Source of the DNA: a virus
IMG/VR virus record: IMGVR_UViG_3300028883_000031
Span: 1 to 12,173 of that record
Reading direction: 5' to 3' (one strand)
Length of the DNA: 12,173 nucleotides
Part shown: piece by piece, positions 1-12,173 of the stretch
Position numbering within the stretch: the stretch's first letter is position 1
Layout of the letters: each line of letters starts with the position of its first letter
Position numbers and translations under genes: made by a program
Notes under the pieces: model-generated
Told to the model about the DNA's origin: nothing
Seen by the model: only the letters and a program-made list of their open reading frames with translations
Databases searched by the model: none

Positions 1-127
1 ATTCCACTTAAACTTGGTGGTCTATTAAACTTTACTCTTATTGCTAATTGATTCCAAATGTCTTGTTCTAATAAAGTCTGCTCTTCAACATACACTGGTT
101 CAAAAGTCATATAACCCACTTTAGATG
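1..127. repeat. Terminal overlap copy 1, identical to 12047..12173 (circular-assembly signature or terminal redundancy)
   Basis: Base-by-base comparison of the first 127 nt with the last 127 nt shows identity; the unit length is therefore 12,046 bp. Confidence 0.97.
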
Positions 128-1010
128 CTGCCTCTGTGAAATCAGATGTATTGGCAATAGCTTTGGGAATACCCACAGCTTGATAAAAGAACCCTTCTAA
201 ATATCTAATCCAATCCAGGAAAGGTTGTAAAGGTGGAGTTGTGTAATCCATAACTTCAATGTCTTTGTTTTGCCTTCCAGGTAATACCAAAACTTCTCCA
301 TCCTTAATTGCTGTTTTCCATTGTGTTCTTAATTCTGATAATTTGGTTGGGTTATCAATATCACAATAAATAACTCTAATTGAACTTCTATGTGATATTC
401 TTCGCCAGTCTCTCATTGCTTCATTTCTTGCTTCAATAACCCACTTAACTGCTTCCCAAGATGGAGTTCCATGTATTTCAGATGCTATTCTATCATTAGA
501 AATATGAAATATCTCCTCTGGTTGCCATTTAACCTCTGTAGGTTTTCCATCCTTTCCTAATTCAGTGTATCCTTCTATTAATCCTTTTTTATTAAATAAA
601 ACTCTTATTTTTCTTGGATTTAGAGGAATTAAATTAACTAATCTACCATCTTTCTCATCTCTAATTATTTCAGCATAAGCATCACCATTTATTTTTTTAG
701 TAATAATTAAAGAAGTCATAATTGATTGAAAACTATCTTCACCCCATCCCTCAATATTATCTAAAGTAATTTTATCTTTATCTTGTTCAACATTATAACC
801 TCTTCCAATAGCCCATCTTGCTAATGCCCTAATGGCTTCTTTAAACTCTGGAATGTTTTTATAAATTCCTAATCCCTCAGACCAATAAGTATTATCCCAA
901 TAAGTTCTCTTTTGCTCTTCTGTATCGTCAATATGTTCTGAAGGAGTTTTATAGTCGAGCCCTGCTGAGTTTAGTTCTGTTGTTGTTGTGTTTGATAAAT
1001 TTCTTTCCAT
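1..1010 (-). CDS. Portal protein, 5' 1010 nt of a 1095-nt ORF (364 aa) that wraps across the window junction to a stop at 11962
   Basis: Hand translation from ATG 1010..1008 (TAATG overlap with the upstream stop) stays open to position 1. It reads MERNLSNTTTTELNSAGLDYKTP...INGDAYAEIIRDEKDGRLVNLIPLNPRKIRV...WQPEEIFHISNDRIASEIHGTPSWEAVKWVIEARNEAMRDW...AVGIPKAIANTSDFTEAASKVGYMTFEPVY. These blocks resemble conserved blocks of the HK97/SPP1-type Phage_portal family. The gene sits in a head-module context. No search was run. Confidence 0.8.
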   Translation of the reverse strand, partial: MERNLSNTTTTELNSAGLDYKTPSEHIDDTEEQKRTYWDNTYWSEGLGIYKNIPEFKEAIRALARWAIGRGYNVEQDKDKITLDNIEGWGEDSFQSIMTSLIITKKINGDAYAEIIRDEKDGRLVNLIPLNPRKIRVLFNKKGLIEGYTELGKDGKPTEVKWQPEEIFHISNDRIASEIHGTPSWEAVKWVIEARNEAMRDWRRISHRSSIRVIYCDIDNPTKLSELRTQWKTAIKDGEVLVLPGRQNKDIEVMDYTTPPLQPFLDWIRYLEGFFYQAVGIPKAIANTSDFTEAASKVGYMTFEPVYVEEQTLLEQDIWNQLAIRVKFNRPPSLSG

Positions 1011-1684
1011 TATTCTTCTATTCTAAAAGGAACATACACATTTAAATCTGAGTGTCCGTCATCTGCTACAACCCAATCAGGTGTGCCGCCAATATCTTCA
1101 TTTTTAGGATTAATAGGCAAATACATCTGACAAGTAACCCCGTCAGAAGAACGATGTCCATACATTTCAACTTTTAATCTTAAAATATCATCTTTTACAA
1201 ATTGTTTTTCAGTCATACTCACTTCTAAACAAAATGGAAAAGTAAAAAATTTTGTATAATTTCCAGCTAATGTTTCAGTTTGCACTGTCCCTATTGTAGT
1301 GGCAGTAGTTCCGTCATAATGTTCAAATGTAAAAAGAATATATCCTTGGCATTCATCATTTGGGTTATCAGGGCAGTAAAAACCCAAAGTTCCTTCAATA
1401 TATGCTGTTCCTTTAACATATTTAGCTTTATTAAATGGAGATAAAGCAAATGTAGCTGTCTTTTCTAAAGTAAAAGAAGGACCTGCTTCTGTTAAAGCAT
1501 CACTTAAAATAAACAAAGGGTCTCCGTTTAAAATCTGTTTTGACAACTTAAATGATTCTCCAGTGGAGTCAGTGCTTCCAAAACATTTAAGAGCAACAAT
1601 ACCAGTTCCATCTGAGATGTCCTCGTAATCATAATTAATTATTTGGTTTGAACCTACATTAAAGTCTTGTGAAATTGTTGCCAT
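1010..1684 (-). CDS. Hypothetical beta-rich virion protein (224 aa)
   Basis: Long ORF tightly coupled between the 122-aa gene and the portal (one base separates it from the upstream stop; TAATG overlap downstream). Composition suggests an all-beta fold. No recognisable motif. Confidence 0.6.
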   Translation of the reverse strand: MATISQDFNVGSNQIINYDYEDISDGTGIVALKCFGSTDSTGESFKLSKQILNGDPLFILSDALTEAGPSFTLEKTATFALSPFNKAKYVKGTAYIEGTLGFYCPDNPNDECQGYILFTFEHYDGTTATTIGTVQTETLAGNYTKFFTFPFCLEVSMTEKQFVKDDILRLKVEMYGHRSSDGVTCQMYLPINPKNEDIGGTPDWVVADDGHSDLNVYVPFRIEE

Positions 1685-1685
1685 T

Positions 1686-2054
1686 TTAACTAATTGTCAA
1701 ATATGCTTTAATATTTGAATCTTTAATTTGTGCTAATCCTTTGCTTAGATGTGTTTGAAGTAAATTAAGTCTTAATGCTGCACCATTTACACCAATAGAT
1801 TCTGGTTCATATCCTATAATTTTTTGAGCAATATAAGCACAACAGATAGTGCTTAATATTTCTTTTCCACTGGAAGTCAAGGAGGCATAATTAGTTATTA
1901 CATCATAATCGCATTCATTACAGACTAAAGATTCAGCTTCATCACTCCATTTGTCGAGAGTATCTTTACTACTTCCATAATTCACAATAGTAGTATTTGT
2001 ATTAGCACCAGCCGTATCTATTGCTGCTCCGCTTGTGCATAATGTCCAACTCAT
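1686..2054 (-). CDS. Hypothetical protein (122 aa), possible head-completion/connector protein by position only
   Basis: ORF starts one base after the TerL stop (TAACATG). No motif recognised. Confidence 0.55.
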   Translation of the reverse strand: MSWTLCTSGAAIDTAGANTNTTIVNYGSSKDTLDKWSDEAESLVCNECDYDVITNYASLTSSGKEILSTICCAYIAQKIIGYEPESIGVNGAALRLNLLQTHLSKGLAQIKDSNIKAYLTIS

Positions 2055-2055
2055 G

Positions 2056-3459
2056 TTAAAAGTAATATATACTCATATTTATATGTTTCTGATTTGCTAA
2101 CCATGCTGCTCTTGTCAATCCTTCAACTAAATCTGTAAATTTATGTTGTGCAGCAAAGATTTTAACCATTGTTTTTCTACCTTCTTCTCTTGGATATTCA
2201 TACTGGATAGCTCTCAGACATTCTATTAATTCTTCGTCATCTAATAATTGAATTTTACCTTTTTCCATTAGAGCTATCAAATTATCATACAAATCTTCTT
2301 TCAAAATTCTTCTATATTTCTCATTTCTACTATCTAAAGATTTCTTCAGATTATTTATAGCAACTATCTTATGTCTTATTCCAGGTTCTTTAATTAACCA
2401 ATCAAAAATTCCAACTCCAAGACTACCAGAACCAGCATCTATTCCAATTTTACGGAAATCCCATATTGCATCCATCATTAAAATATGGTCGTAAGTTTGA
2501 GTTGTTAAAGTCTTTCTTGTGTATTGGCTTTCTCTCTGTGCTAATCTTCCTTGTGGAAGTCTCTCTATAACTTCATAAGTAGAGGCATCATCTCCCATTC
2601 TTGCTATATCAACACCCAAATAGTAATCTCTATCTGGTATTCTTTGAGTTCTCTTTAATACACAGCACTTCTTTATGATTCTATCTGAGAATAAACGTCT
2701 AAAGTCAGATACAAATTCCCCCAAGTATTCCTGTGCATATTGTAATTCAGACATTCTTGCTTTTTCTCTATCTTGATGAGCCAACATATTCGAACTTTGT
2801 GGCTCTTCTCTTTGTTTGGCAATATCTTCTGCATTGATGTGCCATGTCTTAAAGTCTTTGTCAAAGAATCTATCGTGAAAATATCCTTTATCTCCCATTG
2901 GTGTTGAGAGTAAAATTATCTTTCCGCCTGTTGTTGCTAACATTGGAGTAATGGCAGGCCAAACACTCTCTGGAATAAATGCAGCTTCGTCAGCTATTAA
3001 TAAATCAACAGTGTATCCTCGTATCCCAAGACCATCCAATCCAGTTGGCAAACATCTGATTATACTTCCATTGTTCAGCTTTATTTCTGTCTTTGTTGGT
3101 CTGTCTTTTCCTTTCTTTATCCATGTTCGGTAGTTGTCGTGTAAATATGTTAATACCTTTGAGAAAAGCAAATAAGCTTGACGCTCTGTTGCTGATATTA
3201 TCATTATGGATTGCTTTTTGTTTAGAGCTGCGAACTTTCCTGCTTTTCTTGCTATGATTGTCGATTTTCCTACTTGCCTTCCTGCTCGAAGTGCTATGTT
3301 TCCGTCGTAATCCTCTACTTCTCGCTGCCATCTGTCAAGGGTAATCTTATCAGATTCTTTAATTTGTCCTCTGACATCTTTAGAATCATCTCGTTGATTT
3401 CCTTCTCTGCTTGCATTTGCAGAATGGACTTCTCCGACTTTTCTTTTATTTGTTGCCAT
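2056..3459 (-). CDS. terL: Terminase large subunit
   Basis: 467-aa ORF with Walker A GRQVGKST, Walker B-like VDLLIADEAAF and coupling motif LLSTP. The C-terminal half has acidic RNase-H-like nuclease motifs (YLGVDIARMGDD, IGIDAGSG). Confidence 0.93.
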   Translation of the reverse strand: MATNKRKVGEVHSANASREGNQRDDSKDVRGQIKESDKITLDRWQREVEDYDGNIALRAGRQVGKSTIIARKAGKFAALNKKQSIMIISATERQAYLLFSKVLTYLHDNYRTWIKKGKDRPTKTEIKLNNGSIIRCLPTGLDGLGIRGYTVDLLIADEAAFIPESVWPAITPMLATTGGKIILLSTPMGDKGYFHDRFFDKDFKTWHINAEDIAKQREEPQSSNMLAHQDREKARMSELQYAQEYLGEFVSDFRRLFSDRIIKKCCVLKRTQRIPDRDYYLGVDIARMGDDASTYEVIERLPQGRLAQRESQYTRKTLTTQTYDHILMMDAIWDFRKIGIDAGSGSLGVGIFDWLIKEPGIRHKIVAINNLKKSLDSRNEKYRRILKEDLYDNLIALMEKGKIQLLDDEELIECLRAIQYEYPREEGRKTMVKIFAAQHKFTDLVEGLTRAAWLANQKHINMSIYYF

Positions 3460-3509
3460 AACTCTTCTTCTTGATTACCGATAACAATTTCGTTATTATT
3501 TTTTTCCAT
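3315..3509 (-). CDS. Hypothetical 64-aa acidic/coiled protein; first, leaderless ORF of the structural operon; overlaps the terL 5' end by 145 nt
   Basis: Its ATG at 3509 lies 19-21 nt from the palindromic TATA box 3529..3538. The ORF reads in a different frame from terL (start 3459). Coding status is uncertain. Confidence 0.4.
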   Translation of the reverse strand: MEKNNNEIVIGNQEEELWQQIKEKSEKSILQMQAEKEINEMILKMSEDKLKNLIRLPLTDGSEK

Positions 3510-3528
3510 AATAAAAAAAAGAAAAAAG

Positions 3529-3538
3529 TATTTAAATA
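3529..3538. promoter_or_regulatory. Palindromic TATA box TATTTAAATA, promoter of the terL/portal operon, possibly bidirectional
   Basis: Lies 19-21 nt upstream of ATG 3509, matching the spacing at five other operon starts. Confidence 0.6.
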
Positions 3539-3560
3539 ATTTGTGTTTTCTCTGTGTAGA

Positions 3561-3605
3561 GTTGAGGGGGTTTATACTTTTCCCTCCTCGACTTTTTTCT
3601 TTTTT
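3561..3605 (+). other. Imperfect 10-bp hairpin (3561..3570 / 3583..3592) followed by T6CT6; candidate small RNA or oligo-T terminator
   Basis: The stem contains two G-T pairs, which are tolerated only in a plus-strand RNA. The T-run at 3593..3605 follows immediately. The stem starts about 22 nt downstream of the TATA box at 3529..3538. Confidence 0.3.
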
Positions 3606-3757
3606 AAAATAATAAAAAAAAATTTAAAAAATTTCGTTGAGGGGTAAGCACTTTTTATAAACTACATTTTTGAACGTCGGGGTTATTTGTAGTGTATAAA
3701 TAGAAATTGATTTGCGAGTTAGCCGGTATACCGATTAACTACACTGCCTCTGCGCCT

Positions 3758-3835
3758 AATTGAATTAAGTCCGCTTTGTGAAGCGGATTGCCTCTATAGA
3801 GGCAACTTTGCCCACAGGCAAAGCTTAATTCAATT
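3758..3835. other. Perfect 78-nt four-way-junction (cloverleaf-like) element: 12-bp closing stem plus three 7-bp hairpins with 4-nt loops
   Basis: Closing stem is 3758..3769 / 3824..3835. The hairpins are 3770..3787 (loop TGTG), 3788..3805 (loop TATA) and 3806..3823 (loop CACA). All 33 pairs are Watson-Crick and no junction nucleotide is unpaired. Confidence 0.85.
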
Positions 3836-3849
3836 CCTCCTCATCCTCC

Positions 3850-3978
3850 TCCTTTACCTGTATGCGAACGCAATGTAACCGAAAATTATATATATTATGA
3901 AAACTTAGTTTGAGGAACTCAAACTAAATTCTTAAGATAAATAAAGATGCGAACGAATGTGAGCATACAGGTAAAGGA
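3850..3978. repeat. 16-bp perfect inverted repeat (3850..3865 / 3963..3978) enclosing a 10-bp hairpin (3905..3914 / 3918..3927) and a direct repeat ATGCGAACG(C)AATGT (3862..3876, 3947..3960)
   Basis: All pairs checked by hand. The enclosed segment also carries a TA-alternating stretch near 3885..3898. Confidence 0.85.
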
Positions 3979-3998
3979 ACTATAACCTCGCTCCGCTC

Positions 3999-4053
3999 GG
4001 TAAATATTGAACTGGTAAATATTGAACTGGTAAATATTGAACTGGTAAATACT
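3999..4053. repeat. Tandem 15-bp repeat GGTAAATATTGAACT, three perfect copies plus a partial copy (iteron-like)
   Basis: Copies at 3999..4013, 4014..4028 and 4029..4043, with a partial copy at 4044..4053. Confidence 0.9.
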
Positions 4054-4062
4054 AAATTATTA

Positions 4063-4089
4063 AGTAGTTATGAAAAAGTAGTTATGAAA
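4063..4089. repeat. Direct repeat AGTAGTTATGAAA, two copies with 14-bp period
   Basis: Copies at 4063..4075 and 4077..4089. Confidence 0.8.
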
Positions 4090-4165
4090 GTTTAAATAAA
4101 AGGGGTATTGTGTATTAGTAGAATATGAGTATTTTACCTGTTTGTATATCTCATGGAGGGGGAAT

Positions 4166-4291
4166 GTGTGTTCTCTCTCTGTAGGAATTTGAATTACCTT
4201 AGTTGGAATTCTATTATATTGGTTTCTTTCTTTCTTTTCTTTTTGGTTCTTTTTCTTTTCTTTCTTTCAATATGACAGAGAGAGAACACAC
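4166..4291. repeat. 17-bp perfect inverted repeat GTGTGTTCTCTCTCTGT / ACAGAGAGAGAACACAC flanking a 92-nt spacer
   Basis: Arms at 4166..4182 and 4275..4291, all pairs checked. The right arm ends 7 nt before the TATA box of the plus-strand gene. Confidence 0.9.
4226..4268. repeat. Perfect homopyrimidine mirror repeat (19 nt, 5-nt spacer, 19 nt), an H-DNA/triplex-type motif
   Basis: CTTTCTTTCTTTTCTTTTT at 4226..4244 read backwards equals TTTTTCTTTTCTTTCTTTC at 4250..4268. The spacer GGTTC is at 4245..4249. Confidence 0.85.
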
Positions 4292-4298
4292 CAAAACA

Positions 4299-4306
4299 TT
4301 TAAATA
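4299..4306 (+). promoter_or_regulatory. TATA box TTTAAATA with upstream A-rich BRE-like CAAAACA; promoter of the leaderless plus-strand gene
   Basis: Exactly 21 nt separate the box from ATG 4328. Confidence 0.65.
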
Positions 4307-4327
4307 GTTTAATGTTTTAGTTTTGAT

Positions 4328-4567
4328 ATGAATATTAATGCAATAAGAGCTGAAGAAAGACATAGAAAGATAGTAGAAATATTAGCTACTATAAAAAAAG
4401 CTTTTGAGAATGGCTTAGAATTGAATTTTGAAGCGTTGATTAATCAAGCATGCTTTCAGCAAAGAATAGCAAGAAGGACAGCCATGGAATACATAAACAT
4501 AGCATTAAGCCAAGTGGAACATAAAATAGAAGGAAAAGGAAAAAATAAATTAATAATTAAGATTTAA
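4328..4567 (+). CDS. Small winged-helix-turn-helix-like DNA-binding protein (79 aa), candidate regulator
   Basis: This is the only plus-strand gene and it is leaderless. It shows a helix-helix-helix pattern with a recognition-helix-like RIARRTAMEYINIAL, then a basic beta-hairpin-like tail KIEGKGKNKLIIKI. Assigned by eye only. Confidence 0.5.
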   Translation: MNINAIRAEERHRKIVEILATIKKAFENGLELNFEALINQACFQQRIARRTAMEYINIALSQVEHKIEGKGKNKLIIKI

Positions 4568-4911
4568 AGAGGAATAACAGTGTATTTAGTCTTTAAACCT
4601 TCACCAGATTTCTTTACTTTAATATACGTTAGCTTTGGATTCTCTAACAATATATCTTGTAAAGCCATTAGCACAGACTTAGGAACTTTATACTTTTCCC
4701 CTTCAAGCATAAAATAGCTGTAAGGAAAATCAACATCGTTCTCTTCTTGAATTAGCACATCATCAATCTTAACTTTATCTAAATCTGCAATGTTCTTAAT
4801 TTTTGGTGCTTCATAGTTTTCAGCTGTTTCTTTGAGAGTTGCCATTTGTTCTACTACCTCCTTACATCTATATAAATATTCTTCTTCACTTAGTCCTTCT
4901 TTGTTTATCAT
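4564..4911 (-). CDS. Hypothetical protein (115 aa), last gene of the small-protein operon
   Basis: Clean ORF. It overlaps the upstream gene by 26 nt, and its stop overlaps the stop of the convergent plus-strand gene. Confidence 0.6.
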   Translation of the reverse strand: MINKEGLSEEEYLYRCKEVVEQMATLKETAENYEAPKIKNIADLDKVKIDDVLIQEENDVDFPYSYFMLEGEKYKVPKSVLMALQDILLENPKLTYIKVKKSGEGLKTKYTVIPL

Positions 4912-5092
4912 TTTCTATCATATCAGCTAACACATTATAAAAACCAAATACTATTGAGAGTACTATACAAAGTCTTAAAACCCAAAAAGCATAATACCAA
5001 AATGCAAAACAAATTAAAGCAAATATAATAAACAAAAGCAAAGCAGAATAAATAAAATTCTCTGTTGTTGTTAATTCTTTTGCATAATTCAT
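4886..5092 (-). CDS. Small membrane protein (68 aa, two predicted TM helices)
   Basis: Hydrophobic stretches FIYSALLLFIIFALICFAFWYYAFWVL and CIVLSIVFGFYNVL. SD cassette GTGGAGGATTTGAAATG lies at the start. Confidence 0.6.
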   Translation of the reverse strand: MNYAKELTTTENFIYSALLLFIIFALICFAFWYYAFWVLRLCIVLSIVFGFYNVLADMIENDKQRRTK

Positions 5093-5283
5093 TTCAAATC
5101 CTCCACTTTTAATTTTTGCATAGCTTCATAATTAATGGCCTCAACTTCTTCTTTTGTTAAAAAGTTAAATCTTCTTAAAATTGTAATTGCTGCATGCACA
5201 CCTTTTCTTATTTTGACAACTCTTTCTCCAGCTTCTTCGCCTGGATAATGCATGTGATGTTTTTGCCAAACTACTTTTTTCAT
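5089..5283 (-). CDS. Hypothetical protein (64 aa)
   Basis: ORF with ATGA start/stop coupling on both sides and an upstream GAAGGATTTAAAATG. Confidence 0.6.
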   Translation of the reverse strand: MKKVVWQKHHMHYPGEEAGERVVKIRKGVHAAITILRRFNFLTKEEVEAINYEAMQKLKVEDLK

Positions 5284-5528
5284 TTTAAATCCTTCTCGTC
5301 ACAAAAGACATCTTGATTAATAAGATTAAGTCTTTTCATCCATCTCTCTGTCAAAGTATCAAAATCACAAACATTTTCAAAATCATATTTCATCCACTTA
5401 ATAGCTTCTTGTTTTAGTAAATCTTCGGGTATTGCTCTTTTCTTTTTACATTCATCCTTTAAATAAAAAAGTGGAAACCAACAAAAACATTCTTTATCTG
5501 AAAAATCTTTTAAAGTTTTAAGTTTCAT
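5280..5528 (-). CDS. Hypothetical protein (82 aa), paralogue of 5525..5734; start moved to internal Met
   Basis: The start MKLKTLKDF is preceded by GAGGAGGATTTAGAATG and overlaps the upstream stop (ATGA). It shares MKLKTLKD and EAIKW with its neighbour. Confidence 0.6.
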   Translation of the reverse strand: MKLKTLKDFSDKECFCWFPLFYLKDECKKKRAIPEDLLKQEAIKWMKYDFENVCDFDTLTERWMKRLNLINQDVFCDEKDLK

Positions 5529-5734
5529 TCTAAATCCTCCTCTCTGATGTTGAAGAAATCTAACCAATCTCTACTTGATATTGCCCCACCATAATGTTTC
5601 CACCACTTAATAGCTTCTGCTTTTAGTTTTTTATAATTAATAACCAATTCATAATCATTACTTAGGGGAGGTCTTACTTTCCTTGTTTTAGTTGTTGAAT
5701 ACCGTTTTAAATCCTTCAAAGTTTTAAGTTTCAT
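5525..5734 (-). CDS. Hypothetical protein (69 aa), paralogue of 5280..5528
   Basis: Begins MKLKTLKDLKRY and contains AEAIKWWKHY. SD cassette AAAGGAGATTTAAAATG lies at the start. Confidence 0.6.
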   Translation of the reverse strand: MKLKTLKDLKRYSTTKTRKVRPPLSNDYELVINYKKLKAEAIKWWKHYGGAISSRDWLDFFNIREEDLE

Positions 5735-6570: not shown

Positions 6571-7398
6571 CTAAAACACCTCCTTCCAACTATCATCTAC
6601 ATTAACATAGGCATTGGCTACTTCTTTCCATGCATCATCTACATTAACATAGGCATTAGCTACTTCTTTAAAAGAATCATTAATATTTAAAGTGATGTTT
6701 GTTCCAGTTGGAAGAGGGTCAAAAGGATAGGCCCAACCATCACCACCATTATATAAACTATCTATATCAGCATCAGAAATCTCATCATCAAAAATTCCAA
6801 ACTCATCAAGGTAGCCATTAAAATAAGTAAAGTAAGGATGTCTGTCCCTTCCCATATATGAAATATCTGAACCAGTGGGTCTACTTCTATCATCCCCTAC
6901 ATAATGCCAACTAACACTCTTCTCACTTCCATCAATCCAAATCTGATAATTTCCTTCTCCGCCATCTCCACTACCTGTAACAACTACGTGATACCATGTT
7001 CCAGTAGATAAATTAGCATCTGTTGTAATGTATTGATTATTTGAACCTGGAGTTCCAACAGAAAAATAATATTCTATTTCATCTCCTACAATAGCAATGC
7101 TTTCTCTGACTGCTGTATTATCACTTCCTTTATAATAAATCATTGTTCCATCTCCAGCAGCTCCTAAATCATCAGTATTAAACCAAAAAGAATAACCTAC
7201 TGATGCAGTGAAAGCATCTGAACCAAAAGAAATATAATCAGAATTAGCAGATTCAAAATCATAACTATCATTAATAATTCCAGTTTCTCCATAAGTGCAA
7301 CCATTAACAGAACCATCTAAAGAACCTTCTGCATCAATTAAGTCTCCACTACTCTCGTCAAATTTATAGTAGTGAGTGCAGTCATCTATTAATGCCAT
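6571..7398 (-). CDS. LamG/concanavalin-A-like lectin domain protein (275 aa from internal Met), probable receptor-binding or fibre-associated protein
   Basis: Begins ALIDDCTHYYKFDESSGDLIDAEGSLDGSVNG. Contains GTWYHVVVTGSG, YQIWIDGSEK and FNGYLDEFGIFDDEISDADIDSLY, the Laminin_G_3-type pattern. The start is set at ATG 7398, just after the fibre stop (TAAAATG). Confidence 0.75.
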   Translation of the reverse strand: MALIDDCTHYYKFDESSGDLIDAEGSLDGSVNGCTYGETGIINDSYDFESANSDYISFGSDAFTASVGYSFWFNTDDLGAAGDGTMIYYKGSDNTAVRESIAIVGDEIEYYFSVGTPGSNNQYITTDANLSTGTWYHVVVTGSGDGGEGNYQIWIDGSEKSVSWHYVGDDRSRPTGSDISYMGRDRHPYFTYFNGYLDEFGIFDDEISDADIDSLYNGGDGWAYPFDPLPTGTNITLNINDSFKEVANAYVNVDDAWKEVANAYVNVDDSWKEVF

Positions 7399-7399: not shown

Positions 7400-8146
7400 T
7401 TAAGCTGTGTATTTAAAATAGATTGTTCCTTGGTTATAAAGATTTGCTGGTCCAGGATTGTCCTCTGTTCCAACTAAAATATTTCTACAAATAGCAGCGC
7501 CGCTTGCATCATTATCAGATAAAGTTTTAATTGTAGCACCTGAAACAGCCGCACCAGAAAAATGACCTGTTGAAGTAATATTTGTTTGGGTTAGTGTCTC
7601 TCCATGAGGGTCAGTTGTATCTACAAAATGAGCAGCACCACTTGCTAAATCTGTGTTCCAACTTCCACTAAGAGATAAAGGCAAATAATCAGCAACAACA
7701 GAACCACTTAAAGCCAAGAAGATTGGGTCTGCTTCTGCTGTAATAAAGTTCCCACTTAATGCCAAAAACACTGGGTCTGTTTCTGTATAAGATGTTAAAA
7801 AATTTCCTGATAGTGCCAAAAATATAGGGTCTGTTTCAGCAGTGAGAAATCCCCCTGATAGTGCTAAGAAAACTGGGTCTGTCTCTGCTGTTAAAAATCC
7901 ACCTGACAAAGCTAAAAAGACTGGGTCTGTTTCAGTGTAAGAAGTAATATAACCAGAATCATTTGTTAATTGTGAAATATTATCGCCTGTTTGTAGAAAT
8001 GTAGCAGTAGAACCTTTTTTAGCAGCGTCTTTAATACCTGAAAAATTAGGAATTATAATTGGTTCTCCAGTAGATAACTCTATTAAATTATCTTTTGCCA
8101 CCATAGTTGCTTCACTTGGCCGCCTTCCACTTCTAAAGTTTCCCAT
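7400..8146 (-). CDS. Fibre/receptor-binding-type structural protein with five ETDP(V/I)FLALSG repeats
   Basis: 248-aa ORF with 16-18-aa repeats YTETDPVFLALSGGFLTA and variants. E-T-D-P-V-F repeats are familiar from tail-fibre proteins. It sits immediately upstream of the LamG gene. Confidence 0.6.
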   Translation of the reverse strand: MGNFRSGRRPSEATMVAKDNLIELSTGEPIIIPNFSGIKDAAKKGSTATFLQTGDNISQLTNDSGYITSYTETDPVFLALSGGFLTAETDPVFLALSGGFLTAETDPIFLALSGNFLTSYTETDPVFLALSGNFITAEADPIFLALSGSVVADYLPLSLSGSWNTDLASGAAHFVDTTDPHGETLTQTNITSTGHFSGAAVSGATIKTLSDNDASGAAICRNILVGTEDNPGPANLYNQGTIYFKYTA

Positions 8147-8292
8147 TATCTAAAATTCCCACTCGCAAAAGTTAAATCTTCAATAGGTTTTAAAGACATA
8201 CCCTCTGGTTTTTCTTTAGTTGTTTCTGCTGTAATCCCCTCGGTAATAGGCCAATCTTCTTTTAATTCTTTTTGTCCTAATGTTTCAGCCAT
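8146..8292 (-). CDS. Hypothetical 48-aa protein (MAETLGQKELKEDWPITEGITAETTKEKPEGMSLKPIEDLTFASGNFR), leaderless first gene of the fibre operon
   Basis: Hand-translated. A TATA-like box lies 21 nt upstream. TAATG coupling to the fibre gene. Confidence 0.45.
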   Translation of the reverse strand: MAETLGQKELKEDWPITEGITAETTKEKPEGMSLKPIEDLTFASGNFR

Positions 8293-8333: not shown

Positions 8334-8408
8334 TTAGCTTTCAGAATCGCCAGTGATTTCTTCAACAATTTCTTTTTCAACTTCTTTAGTTTGTTCTTCT
8401 GTCATCAT
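8334..8408 (-). CDS. Possible 24-aa acidic peptide (MMTEEQTKEVEKEIVEEITGDSES)
   Basis: TAATG overlap with the capsid gene stop. Very short, so coding status is doubtful. Confidence 0.2.
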   Translation of the reverse strand: MMTEEQTKEVEKEIVEEITGDSES

Positions 8409-9271
8409 TAACATCCAGTAGTCATACACATAGCATTAGGGTCAGTTACAATAACTTCTCCATCTTCCCATACTCTAACCTTAACACCAATGCCAGGCTC
8501 TTCTTTAGTAATTGCAGTGATAGGTGTAAATGATTTCCATGTAGCACACCTTTGAGGAACTATTTGCATAATTATTCCAGTTGTAGCATTTGGACTTGAT
8601 ACTATTCTTTGCCCTGCTAAATTCATAATTACTCCATCTTGCACCTTCTGAGTTGCAAATCCAGGAACATAAGTTCCTTTTTGTGTTATAATCCAATCAA
8701 GTAATGCTTTCTTTTGGTTTGGATGCATTAACACCACCAAGTTAGAAGTATCATAATTTCGTTGTTCTATTAAATTAGCACCTGAAAGTAAATCTCTAAC
8801 TGGATTACATGACGCAATAGTATCCCAGTCAGCAGTAGCAGCACCACTTAAAGCAACTTGTCCACTTAATACATCGTAAATTCTATAATCAATTTGATTC
8901 TGAACAGCCCTTGTTAAATCTCTCACATTAATAGCCAGCATATCTAAATCACTATCTCTAATGTCTGCATAAGTAAACCATGGAGATTCAACTGAGAAAT
9001 GTTTAACATATGAAGTGTGTCTTGTTGCTGATTGTTCAGCAATAGGAGGCAAAGCACCAAAAGCAACTTTAGATATTTGAGATGCAGTTATTCCAGTTGT
9101 ATCAGTTGAATCTAATACACCTGATGTTTTCCTATACCATCTAATCTCACGAGCACTTGTAGGAGAGTTTGCTAAAAACTTCTTGAATATAAACATTTGG
9201 TCAGCATAACCTTTAGCTAATTTGTCTACATTCAATCCACGAAGGTCAGCTTGTCCTAATGTATCTGCCAT
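8408..9271 (-). CDS. Major capsid protein, HK97 fold
   Basis: 287-aa ORF directly downstream of a DUF2190-like gene, with a scaffold-like gene further upstream. It has a long helix-like segment INVRDLTRAVQNQIDYRIYDVL and overall resembles phage major capsid proteins. Assigned by eye. Confidence 0.8.
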   Translation of the reverse strand: MADTLGQADLRGLNVDKLAKGYADQMFIFKKFLANSPTSAREIRWYRKTSGVLDSTDTTGITASQISKVAFGALPPIAEQSATRHTSYVKHFSVESPWFTYADIRDSDLDMLAINVRDLTRAVQNQIDYRIYDVLSGQVALSGAATADWDTIASCNPVRDLLSGANLIEQRNYDTSNLVVLMHPNQKKALLDWIITQKGTYVPGFATQKVQDGVIMNLAGQRIVSSPNATTGIIMQIVPQRCATWKSFTPITAITKEEPGIGVKVRVWEDGEVIVTDPNAMCMTTGC

Positions 9272-9272: not shown

Positions 9273-9686
9273 TTATACTGCGGCTCCTATGTTTAAAGTA
9301 TATCTAAATGTTTCTCCAGCAGCAGCAGCTTCTTTAGAGATTCCAATAGTATGACTACCTGAAAGTCCTGCTGTAGCAGCTTGTAAGTGATTAGGAAAAG
9401 CAGCATCGCAACTTGAAAGAGTATCTCCAATAGCAATAGCACCTGAAGCATAAGCTCTCAATTCATCACCAGGCCCGTTAAGAACTGCTATCTGAGTATT
9501 TCCATCATCAGCAATTTTTTCAGTGTAAGCAATACCTCCAACAACATCTTCAGCTGTATCATTAGCAGCAACAGTGTTTGGGTCAGTCATCTTTAAAACT
9601 GTCCCTTTTTCAATTCCAGTGCCATCTGCGCAAGTCATAGAAGTAGGAAAAGTCTTTTGTAACATTAATACATGTTCATTAGCCAT
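9273..9686 (-). CDS. DUF2190-like head decoration/cement protein (137 aa from ATG 9686)
   Basis: Pattern GTVLKMTDPNTVAA...VVGGIAYTEKIADDGNTQIAVLNGPGDELRAYASGAIAIGDTL, located immediately before the capsid gene. The track start at 9701 is a GTG, whereas ATG 9686 lies exactly 21 nt from a TATA box. Confidence 0.6.
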   Translation of the reverse strand: MANEHVLMLQKTFPTSMTCADGTGIEKGTVLKMTDPNTVAANDTAEDVVGGIAYTEKIADDGNTQIAVLNGPGDELRAYASGAIAIGDTLSSCDAAFPNHLQAATAGLSGSHTIGISKEAAAAGETFRYTLNIGAAV

Positions 9687-9707: not shown

Positions 9708-9715
9708 TATTTAAA
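9708..9715 (-). promoter_or_regulatory. TATA box (TTTAAATA on the minus strand) with BRE-like CAAAAGA; capsid operon promoter
   Basis: Exactly 21 nt separate it from ATG 9686. Confidence 0.65.
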
Positions 9716-9727: not shown

Positions 9728-10219
9728 TTATAATCCCTCATGATTACCCAGTGCTGTTTGAATTGGAAGGTCAGGTCTCCATCCAATACCTAAAATATTA
9801 ACATGTTCCTTATATATTGGATTTCTCCAAAACCCTAATGAAGTGTCTTTAACTAATTTCTTTGCCTTTAACATTATTCTTAATGCTGATAAATAACCTT
9901 GAACTCCAAAACCACTTCTGAAAGAATTGCCAGTTCCTTCTTCTTTAGCACCAGTATCTAACCAGGTTTCACTTGTAGGAATACCCAAAGTATTACACAT
10001 AGGGCCTACATATTCGTCAGGAATTACATACTCCCATAATTGAATAGGTCTAATTGCACCTTCTACATTTGTAATAACTTCACTTTCTATTTCTTTACCA
10101 GTATCTTTATCTATAAATTTCTTTTTAGATTTAAAAGGAAAATATTGAGACTTTAAATTTTCAATTAACTTTCTTACATGGTCTTGATGTCCTCGTGTAA
10201 TAAAATATATTCCTGCCAT
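9728..10219 (-). CDS. Hypothetical protein (163 aa) in the head module
   Basis: Clean ORF sharing base 10219 with the upstream stop (TAATG). No motif recognised, and I cannot support a protease call. Confidence 0.6.
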   Translation of the reverse strand: MAGIYFITRGHQDHVRKLIENLKSQYFPFKSKKKFIDKDTGKEIESEVITNVEGAIRPIQLWEYVIPDEYVGPMCNTLGIPTSETWLDTGAKEEGTGNSFRSGFGVQGYLSALRIMLKAKKLVKDTSLGFWRNPIYKEHVNILGIGWRPDLPIQTALGNHEGL

Positions 10220-10479
10220 TAATATTCGCCCCTCTCTATTCTATCCACATAATCCGAGGGTGTTTCTTCTTTTTTTTCAGGTTCTTCTCCTCTTTCGCTT
10301 TTTCCACCGAGAATGTTCCGAGCAGCTAACTCTTCATTTCTCTCAACTAATTCTCTCATTTGTTCAACTGCTTTTTCATTTTTCTCAGCTAACTCACGAG
10401 CTTCTTTTAAAAAATCTGCTCTTGCAGGTTTCTTAACATCTTCAGGTTTAACATCTTCTTCAGAATTTTCTGTTTCCAT
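10219..10479 (-). CDS. Scaffolding-like protein (86 aa, acidic, coiled-coil)
   Basis: Highly charged helical sequence FLKEARELAEKNEKAVEQMRELVERNEELAARNILGG, upstream of the decoration and capsid genes. Leaderless, with a TATA box 21 nt upstream. Confidence 0.5.
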   Translation of the reverse strand: METENSEEDVKPEDVKKPARADFLKEARELAEKNEKAVEQMRELVERNEELAARNILGGKSERGEEPEKKEETPSDYVDRIERGEY

Positions 10480-10500: not shown

Positions 10501-10508
10501 TTTATAAA
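10501..10508 (-). promoter_or_regulatory. TATA box TTTATAAA with BRE-like AGAAAAA
   Basis: Exactly 21 nt separate it from ATG 10479. Confidence 0.65.
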
Positions 10509-10513: not shown

Positions 10514-10603
10514 CTATAATAAGAAAGATAAAACTTTTAAAATAAACACTCCTAAGACAGCTCCTCCAAATGCTCTCCAAAAATCAATTTCTCCGTTTCT
10601 CAT
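10514..10603 (-). CDS. Possible 29-aa membrane peptide (MRNGEIDFWRAFGGAVLGVFILKVLSFLL)
   Basis: Hand-translated. ATGA overlap with the stop of the 386-aa gene. Confidence 0.3.
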   Translation of the reverse strand: MRNGEIDFWRAFGGAVLGVFILKVLSFLL

Positions 10604-11760
10604 TTTAAGTTCACCATATTGTTTGTAGATTGATTTGTTTGAGAAGTGAAATACAGCATATCATTAGGAATTATATCTTTCTCTCCAAGCATTAAAGTAT
10701 TTTCCACAGCCCTTAAAGTTTCAGCCATGTTATTTCTTGCAGTTGCTATTTCTTGTTGTAAAACTAAATATTCTTTTGAAGATTTAAATTTAATATTTGC
10801 TATTGAACGCTGTTTTAATATAGCTTCCCATTCTTGAATTTGTTGTTGTTGTTTTTGAATAGTCATAAAAATTGTTTGTGGTGGCATTCCAGCGTCTAAG
10901 TTTCCTCTTAATTGGTCTTGTGCACTATCTACTTCAGAAACATATTGTGATGCAATATCTATTTTATCTTGACCTAAAGAAGCTGGATTAGAACCTCCTA
11001 TTATTGCACCAAATGCAGCACCACCAGCAGCTCCCATTTTTCCAGTAGCCAACTTTGCAGCACCTAAAACCTCAGCTCCACCCAGAGCACCAGCAGCTAT
11101 TAAAGCACCACCTAACATCCCAATAACTTTTGCTCCTCTTAATCTTGCCAAGTCTTTATTATCAAAACCTAAACTCTTAAACATGAAATTCTGAGAAGAT
11201 GCAAAAGGCATCTGAGCAGTTAAAACCTTAGCAATATCTCTCTCTCCTAATCCTTCTAAACCTTCTAAAAATGTTCTGGCTAATTCAGGTTGATTAATAG
11301 CCATCTCTTCTAATTCTTGTGTAAGTGGTTGAACTTGTCCCTCAACAAATTCTTCTCTTGCTATTCTTTCTTCATCAGGTAGTTCATCTGTTGTGATTAT
11401 TCCCTTTTCTAATTTTGGAAATCTTGGGTCATCTTCTGGAATGCCTGCGTTTCTTGCTCTGGCTTGTGCTAACTCTAATTTATCTTTATCTGTTTTAACA
11501 TCTTTATTTTTAAGACTTTGTTCTGCTGTTATATTTGCAGCAGTTACTCTATTCTGTTGTATTTGCTTTTGTTCTTCACTTAAATTTTTAGGGTATCTTC
11601 TTGTAGGTTTAGCTGCTTCTGTTACATTATCCAAAGTGCTCATAGGTGCAGAGCTTCCGCCACCGCTGCTTTTCTTCTTCTTTTTCTTAAAGGGATTTCC
11701 GTAATCTTTAGCCGAAGATGTGCTTACTAAATTCCCTCTCTTATCAAATACGATTGCCAT
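10600..11760 (-). CDS. Large virion protein candidate (386 aa) with a central glycine-zipper hydrophobic segment; internal/ejection or tape-measure-like
   Basis: A K6-SSGGGSS low-complexity stretch is followed by helical charged regions. A segment VIGMLGGALIAAGALGGAEVLGAAKLATGKMGAAGGAAFGAIIGG follows, then a Q-rich coiled C-terminus. It lies downstream of the portal. Function is inferred from composition only. Confidence 0.65.
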   Translation of the reverse strand: MAIVFDKRGNLVSTSSAKDYGNPFKKKKKKSSGGGSSAPMSTLDNVTEAAKPTRRYPKNLSEEQKQIQQNRVTAANITAEQSLKNKDVKTDKDKLELAQARARNAGIPEDDPRFPKLEKGIITTDELPDEERIAREEFVEGQVQPLTQELEEMAINQPELARTFLEGLEGLGERDIAKVLTAQMPFASSQNFMFKSLGFDNKDLARLRGAKVIGMLGGALIAAGALGGAEVLGAAKLATGKMGAAGGAAFGAIIGGSNPASLGQDKIDIASQYVSEVDSAQDQLRGNLDAGMPPQTIFMTIQKQQQQIQEWEAILKQRSIANIKFKSSKEYLVLQQEIATARNNMAETLRAVENTLMLGEKDIIPNDMLYFTSQTNQSTNNMVNLK

Positions 11761-11767
11761 TTTTTAT

Positions 11768-11965
11768 TTACCAGTAATGTTTTTTTCTTCCCCAATATTT
11801 AAAAAACTCTAACCCAGCCCCCACAATAATGCAGAGGAATCCGAAATAGTCTCTTGCTTGAACCATTACAACACCCGATGCTGTTAAAGCCAAAGCACAA
11901 GTGTTAATAATAGTTTCTATTATTGGTTTATGAACTCCGTTTTCTTCTATTTGTTTCTTTGTCAT
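11768..11965 (-). CDS. Small two-TM membrane protein (65 aa), holin-like by architecture only
   Basis: Hydrophobic segments IINTCALALTASGVVMV and FGFLCIIVGAGLEFF, with a basic C-terminus GRKKHYW. ATGA overlap with the portal stop. Confidence 0.55.
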   Translation of the reverse strand: MTKKQIEENGVHKPIIETIINTCALALTASGVVMVQARDYFGFLCIIVGAGLEFFKYWGRKKHYW

Positions 11966-12173
11966 TCTGTTCGTTGTATATTTAATTCTGATTCGTTAGG
12001 TTGAAAACCTACTTGTCCTTGGTTCTTTTGTTCTTCTTCTTGCATCATTCCACTTAAACTTGGTGGTCTATTAAACTTTACTCTTATTGCTAATTGATTC
12101 CAAATGTCTTGTTCTAATAAAGTCTGCTCTTCAACATACACTGGTTCAAAAGTCATATAACCCACTTTAGATG
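11962..12173 (-). CDS. Portal protein, C-terminal segment; 12047..12173 duplicates 1..127, and unique sequence 11962..12046 carries the stop
   Basis: The 67-aa track ORF (M)GYMTFEPVYVEEQ... matches the in-frame continuation of the ORF leaving position 1. Its apparent M is a GTG inside the portal frame. Confidence 0.8.
   Translation of the reverse strand, partial: SKVGYMTFEPVYVEEQTLLEQDIWNQLAIRVKFNRPPSLSGMMQEEEQKNQGQVGFQPNESELNIQRTE
12047..12173. repeat. Terminal overlap copy 2, identical to 1..127
   Basis: Same comparison as for 1..127. Confidence 0.97.

What the first reader, a model, noticed from the sequence alone, without database searches (positions are those of the whole stretch)
1..12173. 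Very small HK97-type virus with archaeal expression signals and no recognisable replication, integration, tail-tube or lysis-enzyme genes
Recognisable genes are terL, portal, a scaffold-like gene, a DUF2190-like decoration gene, an HK97-fold capsid gene, a fibre gene and a LamG gene. The rest are ORFs below 120 aa, plus three unassigned proteins of 122, 163 and 224 aa and one 386-aa glycine-zipper protein. At 12.0 kb this lies at the lower size limit known for head-tail viruses. Together with archaeal-type promoters, it suggests an undescribed lineage of miniature archaeal head-tail viruses. Such a virus would depend on host replication proteins acting on the elaborate non-coding region. An alternative is a capsid-forming satellite that borrows tail parts from a helper.
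Basis: partly seen in the sequence, partly recalled or inferred. Interest (0 to 1): 0.85.

Follow-up and report, generated by a model that had tools for sequence, protein, structure and literature searches.

The report
Miniature 12-kb archaeal head-tail virus
The window is the complete 12,046-bp circular genome of a very small virus that builds a phage-type (HK97) capsid, uses archaeal-style gene start signals and carries no replication genes; it belongs to a large, widespread group known only from metagenomes, for which I found no description.

Summary
The window is one complete genome: an exact 127-nt end overlap gives a 12,046-bp circular map. It encodes TerL, portal, HK97-type capsid protein, an acidic scaffold-like protein, a DUF2190/cement-type protein, a fibre and a LamG protein.

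No replication, integration, tail-tube or lysis domain was found in the window. The Pfam scan of 137 accessory proteins from about 90 relatives found none either.

It is not a one-off. The capsid protein has 896 homologues. I collected 17 other distinct circular genomes of 10.3–12.3 kb, and no relative's contig exceeded 14 kb once a concatemer and a chimera were excluded.

Archaeal expression signals hold family-wide. A BRE-like AAA plus TTTAWAWA box ends exactly 21–23 nt before ATG at 116 gene starts, and these genes lack Shine-Dalgarno motifs. Sigma-70 sites and intrinsic terminators are at chance level.

TerL's best isolate match is a haloarchaeal virus. Capsid and portal match no deposited phage.

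Structure models of the 224-aa and 122-aa proteins gave a fibre-tip-like jelly roll and an unmatched helical bundle, so no tail parts were identified.

Most likely this is an autonomous, non-integrating archaeal virus replicated by host machinery. The host, the tail and the replication mode remain inferred.

The parts
1..127 (.). Terminal overlap, identical to 12047-12173. It marks a circular or circularly permuted genome of 12,046 bp.
   Evidence: Exact 127-nt direct repeat. The sister assembly L008 has a 141-nt overlap, which fits an assembler k-mer overlap.
2056..3459 (-). Large terminase TerL (467 aa), T4-type ATPase plus nuclease.
   Evidence: Terminase_6N 4.5e-11; phrog_2 1.6e-45 over residues 28-449. 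T4 gp17 in the PDB at 4e-7. Best isolate hit is Halogranum tailed virus 1: 29.8% identity, 90% coverage, E 3e-41.
3315..3509 (-). 64-aa leaderless ORF overlapping the TerL 5' end by 145 nt. Status uncertain.
   Evidence: A TATA box at 3529-3536 (-) lies 19 nt upstream of its ATG. No family hit. Not called as a gene in the sister assembly.
1686..2054 (-). Conserved 122-aa helical protein (family c5), always directly after TerL. Candidate head-completion or adaptor protein (inferred).
   Evidence: 235 representative clusters at E<=1e-3. AF2 pLDDT 88, pTM 0.83, helical bundle. No significant PDB fold match, best E 1.9. No PDB sequence hit.
1010..1684 (-). Conserved 224-aa all-beta jelly-roll protein (family c7). 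Likely a virion-surface or receptor-binding module.
   Evidence: AF2 pLDDT 85.7, pTM 0.83. Foldseek PDB: jelly-roll domain of CocE-type hydrolases, E 2e-7, TM about 0.5. BFVD: distal domains of tail-fibre/tailspike-like proteins and a fusellovirus end-filament protein, E 5e-9 to 1e-6.
1..1010 (-). Portal protein, N-terminal 336 codons. The ORF continues across the circular junction.
   Evidence: A 364-aa ORF appears on the circularised genome. Phage_portal 7.2e-11, Portal_Mu 1.2e-6, phrog_12 5.6e-13.
11962..12046 (-). Portal protein, last 27 codons plus the stop codon.
   Evidence: Same ORF as above. The sister assembly calls one 364-aa gene.
11768..11965 (-). 65-aa membrane protein downstream of the portal gene.
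   Evidence: Hydrophobic window at residues 15-37. A small TM protein sits in this position in relatives, families c16/c17/c29.
10600..11760 (-). 386-aa protein with a basic N-terminus, charged segments predicted by eye to be helical, and a Gly/Ala zipper (residues 211-256). Candidate internal or ejection protein (inferred).
   Evidence: No hit in any library. A fast-evolving 320-560-aa Gly-rich protein follows the portal in relatives. The only related signals are weak tape-measure or lysin PHROG hits in a few members of the pooled scan; which family those members belong to was not determined.
10501..10508 (-). TATA box of a leaderless promoter, 21 nt before ATG 10479.
10219..10479 (-). 86-aa acidic scaffold-like protein (family c6).
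   Evidence: 27 D+E against 17 K+R. Conserved between the portal block and the capsid gene in 53 loci. One member of the pooled scan hits a head-scaffolding PHROG.
9728..10219 (-). 163-aa protein (family c8), start overlapping the scaffold gene's stop. Function unknown.
   Evidence: Found in 34 loci; some relatives carry a 60-aa protein in this position instead. Invariant or near-invariant G10, P58, P67, R114, G146, D150, H160, E161. No PDB or family hit.
9708..9715 (-). TATA box, 21 nt before ATG 9686.
9273..9686 (-). 137-aa cement/decoration-type protein (DUF2190, Phage_cement_2), always directly upstream of the capsid gene.
   Evidence: 0.019 for the window protein alone. 17 members of the pooled scan hit Phage_cement_2, best 7.9e-9 (22 cement-family members were in that scan), and phrog_673 hits 13 members.
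8408..9271 (-). Major capsid protein, HK97 type (287 aa).
   Evidence: Phage_capsid_4 6.8e-10, phrog_1650 1.8e-12. 896 homologues. No PDB sequence relative.
8146..8292 (-). 48-aa protein that clusters with fibre-family proteins.
   Evidence: Clusters with the fibre family c0; equivalent small ORFs precede the fibre genes in relatives.
7400..8146 (-). Fibre protein (248 aa) with a conserved N-terminal anchor and five 16-aa repeats.
   Evidence: phrog_9729 tail fiber 8.6e-8 over residues 27-80. 48-nt tandem repeat. A cyanophage tail-fibre-like protein matches at 2e-5.
6571..7398 (-). LamG/concanavalin-like protein (275 aa from ATG 7398). Likely an adhesin.
   Evidence: Laminin_G_3 2.2e-18. Gene start as called in the sister assembly.
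4564..6570 (-). Variable block of nine small ORFs (44-115 aa). It includes an RHH-like 52-aa protein, two membrane proteins and a paralogous pair.
   Evidence: No significant family hit. A TATA box at 6402-6409 lies 21 nt before ATG 6380. TM segments in the 68-aa and 44-aa ORFs. The paralogues match at E 0.001.
4328..4567 (+). 79-aa protein, the only + strand gene. Candidate DNA-binding protein or small terminase.
   Evidence: TATA box at 4299-4306, 21 nt before its ATG. 37% identical (E 4e-11) to a 76-aa ORF that sits directly upstream of TerL in L003.
3510..4327 (.). 818-nt non-coding control region between divergent promoters. It holds a 78-nt four-way junction (3758-3835), a CCTCC-rich tract (3836-3853), a long hairpin (about 3851-3977), a 15-nt repeat x3.5 (3999-4051) and a 14-nt repeat x2 (4062-4089). 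Candidate origin and/or packaging site.
   Evidence: DNA fold of 3690-3990: -60.6 kcal/mol, z -11, 0 of 100 shuffles as stable. Tandem repeats. No Rfam match. Repeat copy number differs in the sister assembly. Structured, repeat-bearing regions upstream of TerL recur in relatives.

Best explanation
The window is the complete genome of an autonomous, non-integrating, miniature Duplodnaviria virus of an uncultivated archaeon. SHOWN: the 12,046-bp circular map; a T4-type terminase, a portal, an HK97-type capsid protein, a cement-type protein, a fibre with a tail-fibre anchor domain, and LamG and jelly-roll modules; five leaderless transcription units driven by BRE/TATA promoters; no detectable replication, integration, tube or lysin domain, both here and across the family; and membership of a large family whose circular genomes are 10.3-12.3 kb. 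INFERRED: (a) DNA is replicated by the host replisome, recruited to the structured, iteron-bearing 818-nt intergenic region, perhaps with help from small virus-encoded DNA-binding proteins. (b) Concatemers are cut and packaged headful by TerL, giving permuted, terminally redundant genomes that assemble as circles. (c) The capsid is about T=3, roughly 43 nm. It is built on the 86-aa scaffold, stabilised by the cement protein, and carries the 386-aa glycine-zipper protein as an internal or ejection protein. (d) The portal vertex bears a minimal, so far unrecognisable short tail made from the 122-aa and 224-aa proteins, with the fibre and LamG proteins as receptor binders. (e) Release uses the small membrane proteins rather than a known lysin.
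For: Completeness and size: the 127-nt overlap, and 17 other distinct circular relatives of 10,258-12,260 bp, median 11.76 kb. That median matches the 11.78 kbp predicted for a T=3 tailed-phage capsid (PMC7762592). Family: 896 capsid homologues, 195 IMG/VR contigs, at least 445 metagenome contigs, and the same gene order throughout. Archaeal signals: TTTAWAWA ends 21-23 nt before ATG at 116 coding-strand gene starts against 7 on the other strand. In the 71 unique sites with 21-nt spacing, the box is preceded by AAA at 83-96% and there is a pyrimidine at -1; only 2 of 71 carry an SD motif, against 211 of 640 internal genes. The window has 4 such sites against 0.28 expected. Sigma-70 sites (41 against 48 +/- 7) and intrinsic terminators (6 against 5.3 +/- 2.2) are not enriched. 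TerL's best isolate hit is an archaeal virus at 3e-41; the next best are Meiothermus and Thermus phages at 2e-22 and 2e-19. No replication or integration genes were found: for the window, for the family. Autonomy: the element has its own fibre, LamG and fibre-tip-like jelly-roll proteins. It was never seen integrated.
Against: No host link was found. There was no CRISPR data, and the six MAG bins holding relatives are taxonomically scattered: four bacterial, one CPR, one Pacearchaeota. One relative contig, L024, ends in a bacterial-type DnaE fragment. A few accessory genes in relatives (RusA, CcdA, Dam) have a bacterial/phage flavour. No adaptor, nozzle or tube fold was recognised in two confident models, so 'tailed' is assumed from the portal, terminase and fibre. 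The capsid fold rests on profile hits, not a structure. T number, packaging mode and replication mode are untested.
Confidence: 0.6

Rival explanations
1. A capsid-forming satellite, the archaeal counterpart of cf-PICIs. It makes its own small capsid and packages itself, but takes tails, and perhaps replication functions, from a larger helper virus.
For: No recognisable tail tube, adaptor, nozzle or replication gene, even after structure prediction. The genome size is typical of satellites.
Against: No integrase and never found integrated, although more than 600 contigs were seen across IMG/VR and metagenomes. It encodes its own fibre with a tail-fibre anchor domain, a LamG adhesin and a fibre-tip-like jelly roll; a tail-stealing element would not need these. 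No helper-interference or primase-type gene was found.
Confidence: 0.12
2. A miniature bacteriophage of an uncultivated small-celled bacterium such as a CPR/Patescibacteria member. On this view the AT-rich boxes are not archaeal promoters.
For: Contig L024 joins a family member to a bacterial-type DnaE C-terminus. Five of the six MAG bins holding relatives are bacterial, including Staskawiczbacteria. RusA, CcdA and Dam occur among relatives.
Against: The BRE-like AAA + TTTAWAWA + 21-23 nt + ATG architecture without SD motifs has no bacterial counterpart that I know of, and it is conserved family-wide, with variant TATA boxes at the same spacing in L024 too. Sigma-70 sites and intrinsic terminators are at chance level. 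TerL is closest to a haloarchaeal virus. All MAG-binned contigs are purely viral fragments of 6.8 kb or less with no host genes, so the binning carries no information.
Confidence: 0.12
3. A truly tailless HK97-capsid virus. The portal vertex carries only fibres and adhesins, and DNA is delivered through the glycine-zipper protein, so it is not head-tail in the usual sense.
For: The proteins conserved next to the portal gave a jelly roll and an unmatched helical bundle rather than tail folds. A membrane-active Gly-zipper protein is conserved after the portal.
Against: The fibre's N-terminus matches a tail-fibre family. Very short podovirus tails are built from fast-evolving proteins that often escape detection. 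Only two of the four unassigned proteins could be modelled.
Confidence: 0.13

Closest known systems
Haloarchaeal tailed viruses, e.g. Halogranum tailed virus 1 (archaeal Caudoviricetes)
   Same: HK97-type capsid, portal and T4-type TerL. TerL is the closest isolate match: 29.8% identity, 90% coverage, E 3e-41. Promoters are archaeal in type.
   Different: HGTV-1 is a 144-kb myovirus with full tail and replication modules. Here the genome is 12 kb with no recognisable tail or replication genes, and capsid and portal show no detectable tblastn similarity to any deposited phage.
Smallest isolated tailed phages (Mycoplasma virus P1, 11.7 kb; Salmonella phage astrithr, 11.6 kb; phi29-like phages)
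   Same: Genome size at the lower limit for tailed viruses. Size fits a predicted T=3 capsid (PMC7762592).
   Different: Those infect bacteria. From my own knowledge, they encode their own protein-primed DNA polymerase and recognisable tail parts, and phi29 uses a nuclease-less ATPase plus a packaging RNA. Here there is no polymerase, a full T4-type terminase, no Rfam RNA and no protein similarity.
Capsid-forming phage-inducible chromosomal islands (cf-PICIs) and other capsid-encoding satellites
   Same: A 10-15-kb element encoding capsid protein, portal and terminase, but no recognisable tail.
   Different: From my own knowledge, cf-PICIs are integrated, carry an integrase and a replication/primase module, and lack fibres. 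This family is never seen integrated, has no integrase or replication protein, and encodes its own fibres and adhesins.
Verdandiviridae (about 19-20-kb Asgard archaeal HK97 viruses)
   Same: Small archaeal HK97-type viruses known only from metagenomes.
   Different: About 60% larger. Relatedness could not be tested, because the one RefSeq accession I tried is not in the searchable collection.

Membership tests
Duplodnaviria / Caudoviricetes | HK97-fold major capsid protein | tested here: met
   Phage_capsid_4 6.8e-10 and phrog_1650 1.8e-12. This is a profile-level result; no structure model was made, and no PDB sequence relative was found.
Duplodnaviria / Caudoviricetes | Portal protein | tested here: met
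   Phage_portal 7.2e-11, Portal_Mu 1.2e-6, phrog_12 5.6e-13.
Duplodnaviria / Caudoviricetes | Large terminase (ATPase plus nuclease) | tested here: met
   Terminase_6N 4.5e-11; phrog_2 1.6e-45 over residues 28-449; T4 gp17 4e-7.
Duplodnaviria / Caudoviricetes | Tail (adaptor, tube or nozzle) | tested here: inconclusive
   Only a fibre with a tail-fibre N-domain was found. The 224-aa model is a jelly roll and the 122-aa model has no fold match. The 163-aa and 386-aa proteins were not modelled.
Archaeal virus (archaeal transcription signals) | BRE/TATA box about 25 nt upstream of the start site, with leaderless first genes | tested here: met
   116 coding-strand sites at 21-23 nt spacing against 7 on the other strand. 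Among the 71 unique sites at 21-nt spacing: AAA at -5 to -3 of the box in 83-96%, and SD motifs in 2 of 71. The window has 4 sites against 0.28 expected. Start sites themselves were not mapped.
Archaeal virus | Direct host link (CRISPR spacer, provirus, co-culture) | not testable with these tools
   No spacer database was available. MAG bins are uninformative. One conflicting DnaE junction exists in L024.
cf-PICI / capsid-forming satellite | Integrase and chromosomal integration | tested here: not met
   No integrase domain in the window or in 137 accessory proteins of relatives. No listed contig exceeds 14 kb apart from a concatemer and a chimera.
cf-PICI / capsid-forming satellite | No receptor-binding or tail genes of its own; helper tails are used | tested here: not met
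   The element has its own fibre (phrog_9729), LamG protein and fibre-tip-like jelly roll. Helper dependence itself cannot be tested here.
phi29-like phages (Salasmaviridae) | Protein-primed family-B DNA polymerase, terminal protein, packaging RNA | tested here: not met
   No polymerase domain. No Rfam hit at E<=1. TerL is a full T4-type terminase.
Verdandiviridae | Capsid, portal and TerL sequence relatedness | not tested
   Accession NC_074645.1 is absent from the collection.

The most novel reading that the evidence does not exclude
This window represents a globally distributed, family-level or higher lineage of archaeal Duplodnaviria that has not been described. Its genomes are 10-12 kb, the smallest self-packaging HK97 viruses of archaea that I am aware of and at the lower size limit for all tailed viruses. 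They would build T=3 capsids, encode no replication protein, and attach or deliver DNA through a portal-vertex device with no detectable homology to known tails. They may infect DPANN-type archaea.
Probability: 0.45. Interest if true: 0.8.

Novelty: new variant of a known kind. Interest (0 to 1): 0.68.

Why it matters
Tailed (HK97) viruses are thought to need fairly large genomes, and the small T=3 forms predicted by capsid models have been called the 'missing tailed phages'. From my own knowledge, described archaeal members are about 20 kb or more.

A widespread archaeal lineage of 10-12 kb would give a natural minimal gene set for a self-packaging HK97 virion: about eight conserved proteins plus fibres. 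Its median genome size falls almost exactly on the T=3 prediction, which makes that model testable.

It would also give a case of complete reliance on the host replisome, and a very compact set of consensus archaeal promoters. If the hosts are DPANN or other uncultivated archaea, it would add an abundant and overlooked part of their virome.

Tried and rejected
- **PDB sequence searches:** profile searches for the 224-aa, 122-aa, 163-aa, cement and capsid families found nothing significant.
- **Fold search, 122-aa model:** no match; best E 1.9.
- **Rfam:** nothing on the whole window at E<=1.
- **tRNA scan:** none in the window. One tRNA-Leu in relative L037 sits between viral genes, so it is not an attachment site.
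- **Host from MAG bins:** rejected. All six contigs are purely viral fragments.
- **Larger relatives:** the 18.4-kb contig is a concatemer. The 21.4-kb IMG/VR contig holds two different family members with TerL 57% identical.
- **L024 DnaE fragment as provirus evidence:** not accepted. It is a single contig, GC3 is the same on both sides, its viral genes still carry TATA-type boxes at 21-24 nt spacing, and DnaE-like genes also occur in phages.
- **Glycine-zipper protein as tape measure or lysin:** only scattered weak PHROG hits in a few pooled-scan members, none in the window protein.
- **Four-way junction as a family-wide element:** found only in the window lineage and L061.
- **First homologue search for the 224-aa protein:** gave 5 hits. 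Repeating it with an alignment gave 22, which was enough for a confident model.
- **Literature:** five full-text searches found no description of this family. Subscription journals are not covered.

Full report
**What is in the window**

Bases 1-127 are identical to 12047-12173. The unit genome is therefore 12,046 bp with a circular map. A second public assembly of the same virus (L008) closes with a 141-nt overlap. These overlaps are most simply assembler k-mer overlaps, not physical terminal repeats. GC content is about 33% and there is no tRNA gene.

All genes but one lie on the minus strand. Once the genome is circularised, a 364-aa portal ORF appears across the junction.

**Genes that can be named**

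| Gene | Coordinates | Evidence |
|---|---|---|
| TerL | 2056-3459 | Terminase_6N 4.5e-11; phrog_2 1.6e-45 over residues 28-449; T4 gp17 in the PDB 4e-7 |
| Portal | 1010..1 + 12046..11962 | Phage_portal 7.2e-11 |
| Capsid protein | 8408-9271 | Phage_capsid_4 6.8e-10; phrog_1650 1.8e-12 |
| Fibre | 7400-8146 | phrog_9729 tail fiber 8.6e-8 over residues 27-80 |
| LamG protein | 6571-7398 | Laminin_G_3 2.2e-18 |

- The 137-aa protein just upstream of the capsid gene is only a weak Phage_cement_2 match by itself (0.019). In the pooled family scan, which included 22 members of this family, 17 members hit that model, best 7.9e-9.
- The 86-aa protein at 10219-10479 is strongly acidic and sits in the usual scaffold position.
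- The 122-, 163-, 224- and 386-aa proteins and all the small ORFs have no significant hit in Pfam, PHROGs or NCBIfam.

**It belongs to a large family with a fixed, very small genome**

- The capsid protein has 896 homologues at E<=1e-3.
- 195 IMG/VR contigs and at least 445 metagenome contigs encode a relative. Sources include groundwater 0.1-um filtrates, TARA ocean samples and sulfate-methane transition-zone sediment.
- Among the fetched loci there are 17 further distinct circular genomes of 10,258-12,260 bp, median 11.76 kb.
- No listed contig is longer than 14 kb, with two exceptions. One is an 18.4-kb concatemer. The other is a 21.4-kb contig that joins two different family members.

Gene order is conserved:

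- small ORF, then TerL
- about 121-aa helical protein
- optional SNase-type nuclease, absent from the window
- about 210-aa beta protein
- portal
- small membrane protein
- variable 320-560-aa Gly-rich protein
- scaffold-like protein
- optional about 155-aa protein
- cement-type protein
- capsid protein
- fibres
- variable small ORFs

**Expression signals are archaeal in type**

In the window, TTTAWAWA followed by exactly 21 nt and then ATG occurs four times. The chance expectation is 0.28 +/- 0.54, and none of 200 shuffles reached four. Each site precedes a real gene start: 10479, 9686, 6380 and 4328. A fifth box lies 19 nt before ATG 3509.

Across the family:

- The box ends 21-23 nt before an ORF's first ATG 116 times on the coding strand and 7 times on the other strand.
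- Among the 71 unique sites with 21-nt spacing, AAA lies 3-5 nt upstream of the box in 83-96%, and a pyrimidine precedes the ATG in 84%.
- Only 2 of those 71 genes have a Shine-Dalgarno motif, against 211 of 640 operon-internal genes.

From established knowledge of archaeal transcription, this is the BRE plus TATA-box layout: the box is centred about 26-27 nt upstream of the start site, and first cistrons are leaderless. Sigma-70-type sites (41 against 48 +/- 7) and intrinsic terminators (6 against 5.3 +/- 2.2) are at chance level.

**What is missing**

A Pfam scan of 137 accessory proteins of 100 aa or more, from about 90 relatives, found no replication initiator, polymerase, primase, helicase, integrase or recombinase at E<=1e-4. 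The only hits were:

- beta-helix and glycosyltransferase domains
- Dam and Dcm methylases
- one RusA and one CcdA
- one DnaE fragment

So the lack of replication and integration genes is a property of the family, not of this one genome. No lysin domain was found. Three small membrane proteins are the only lysis candidates.

**Search for tail parts**

| Protein | Model quality | Result |
|---|---|---|
| 224 aa | pLDDT 85.7, pTM 0.83 | A jelly roll. PDB matches are the jelly-roll domain of CocE-type hydrolases, E 2e-7, TM about 0.5. Viral matches are distal domains of tail-fibre or tailspike-like proteins and a fusellovirus end-filament protein. It is a surface or receptor-binding type of fold, not a tube or nozzle. 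|
| 122 aa | pLDDT 88, pTM 0.83 | A helical bundle with no significant structural match; best E 1.9. |

Profile searches of PDB sequences found nothing for these proteins or for the 163-aa family. 'Head-tail' therefore rests on the portal, the terminase and the fibre's tail-fibre anchor domain.

**The non-coding region (3510-4327)**

This region lies between divergent leaderless promoters. It contains:

- a perfect 78-nt four-way junction (3758-3835): a 12-bp stem enclosing three abutting 7-bp hairpins
- a CCTCC-rich tract (3836-3853)
- a long hairpin (about 3851-3977)
- a 15-nt repeat x3.5 (3999-4051)
- a 14-nt repeat x2 (4062-4089)

The fold of 3690-3990 is far more stable than shuffled sequence: z -11, with 0 of 100 shuffles as stable. 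The sister assembly has one fewer 15-nt copy.

Many relatives also carry GC-rich palindromes and iteron-like tandem repeats in non-coding DNA upstream of TerL. The exact four-way junction recurs, with a different sequence, only in L061. Nothing matches Rfam.

Reading this region as an origin and/or packaging site is inference from its position and anatomy.

**Host**

No direct link was obtained.

- *For an archaeal host:* the promoter architecture, and TerL's best isolate hit. That hit is Halogranum tailed virus 1 (29.8% identity, E 3e-41); the next best are Meiothermus and Thermus phages at 2e-22 and 2e-19.
- *Against:* relatives were binned into four bacterial MAGs, one CPR MAG and one Pacearchaeota MAG. 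All six contigs are purely viral fragments, so this says little. Contig L024 also ends in a bacterial-type DnaE C-terminus. Its viral genes still carry TATA-type boxes 21-24 nt before the ATG, so I regard the junction as probably chimeric, but this is unresolved.

**Most likely mechanism**

The most likely reading is an autonomous, lytic or chronic, non-integrating virus. All steps below are inferred.

1. The host replisome copies the genome from the structured intergenic region.
2. TerL packages it by the headful mechanism.
3. The capsid is about T=3. The family's median genome of 11.76 kb falls on the 11.78 kbp predicted for T=3 (PMC7762592).
4. The capsid is built on the small scaffold and stabilised by the cement protein.
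5. The glycine-zipper protein is a candidate internal or ejection protein.
6. The 122-aa and 224-aa proteins, with the fibre and LamG proteins, form the portal-vertex attachment device.

The satellite alternative is weakened by the element's own receptor-binding genes and by the absence of integrase and of any integrated copy. It is not excluded.

**Comparison with what is known, and novelty**

Capsid and portal have no tblastn match in 50,697 deposited phage genomes. Five full-text literature searches found no description of such a family. A 2025 preprint on small HK97 genomes describes a different group: gut-derived, temperate, and lacking portal and terminase.

The element meets the defining features of Duplodnaviria, apart from an identified tail. 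It fails the defining features of cf-PICIs and of phi29-like phages. Relatedness to Verdandiviridae could not be tested.

I rate it a new variant of a known kind: an apparently undescribed, minimal archaeal branch of the HK97 viruses.

Noticed in passing
window 3758-3835; L061 95-172: A perfect 78-nt four-way junction: a 12-bp stem enclosing three abutting 7-bp hairpins with 4-nt loops. A distant relative (50% capsid identity) has the same 78-nt architecture with a different sequence. It was not found in other loci or in shuffled controls. It could be a DNA cruciform at an origin or packaging site, or a small RNA.
   Followed up: partly
window 3836-3853: A CCTCC-rich tract (TTCCTCCTCATCCTCCTCC) directly follows the junction. 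It has several copies of the anti-Shine-Dalgarno core, or of GGAGG on the other strand. A TTTATAAA box at 3654-3661 could drive a transcript through this region.
   Followed up: no
window 3999-4051; L008: The 15-nt tandem repeat GGTAAATATTGAACT has 3.5 copies here and one fewer in an independent assembly of the same virus. Iteron-like repeats upstream of TerL recur in L003, L022, L061, L063, L076 and L091.
   Followed up: partly
L024 7340-8026: A relative contig (59% capsid identity) ends, 340 nt after its fibre gene, in the C-terminus of a bacterial-type DNA polymerase III alpha subunit (HHH_6 + OB fold; 31-36% identical to bacterial and phage DnaE). This is either an assembly chimera or a host junction. 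It is the only bacterial signal found.
   Followed up: partly
L037 6808-6890: A tRNA-Leu (anticodon TAG) lies between the capsid and fibre genes of a relative. No other family member scanned carries a tRNA.
   Followed up: no
IMG/VR contig 3300028920_000300 (L174, L176): This 21.4-kb contig contains two different family members joined together, with TerL copies only 57% identical. It is either a co-assembly artefact or a real heterodimer.
   Followed up: partly
relatives, between the 121-aa and 210-aa genes (e.g. L003 4163-4558, L087 2051-2521): Many relatives carry a roughly 150-aa staphylococcal-nuclease-type gene inside the structural block (Pfam SNase in 15 members, phrog_452 in 19). The window lacks it.
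   Followed up: partly
window 4328-4567 (+); L003 2342-2572: The only + strand gene (79 aa) is 37% identical (E 4e-11) to a 76-aa gene that sits directly upstream of TerL on the same strand in L003. This suggests a small-terminase or DNA-binding role, with an inversion in the window lineage.
   Followed up: partly
window 3315-3509 (-): A 64-aa ORF starts 19 nt after a TATA box and overlaps the annotated TerL start by 145 nt in another frame. Either TerL has a 45-nt leader plus an unusual basic N-terminal extension, or both are translated.
   Followed up: no
window 5280-5567 and 5525-5734 (-): Two adjacent small ORFs are paralogues; both begin MKLKTLKD and match at E 0.001. Their ribosome-binding regions are duplicated as well.
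   Followed up: partly
relatives L029 3674-4042, L070 1664-1936: A roughly 90-120-aa gene directly upstream of TerL in some relatives gives weak hits to the archaeal Holliday-junction resolvase Hjc and to Mrr-type nucleases (E 0.012).
   Followed up: no
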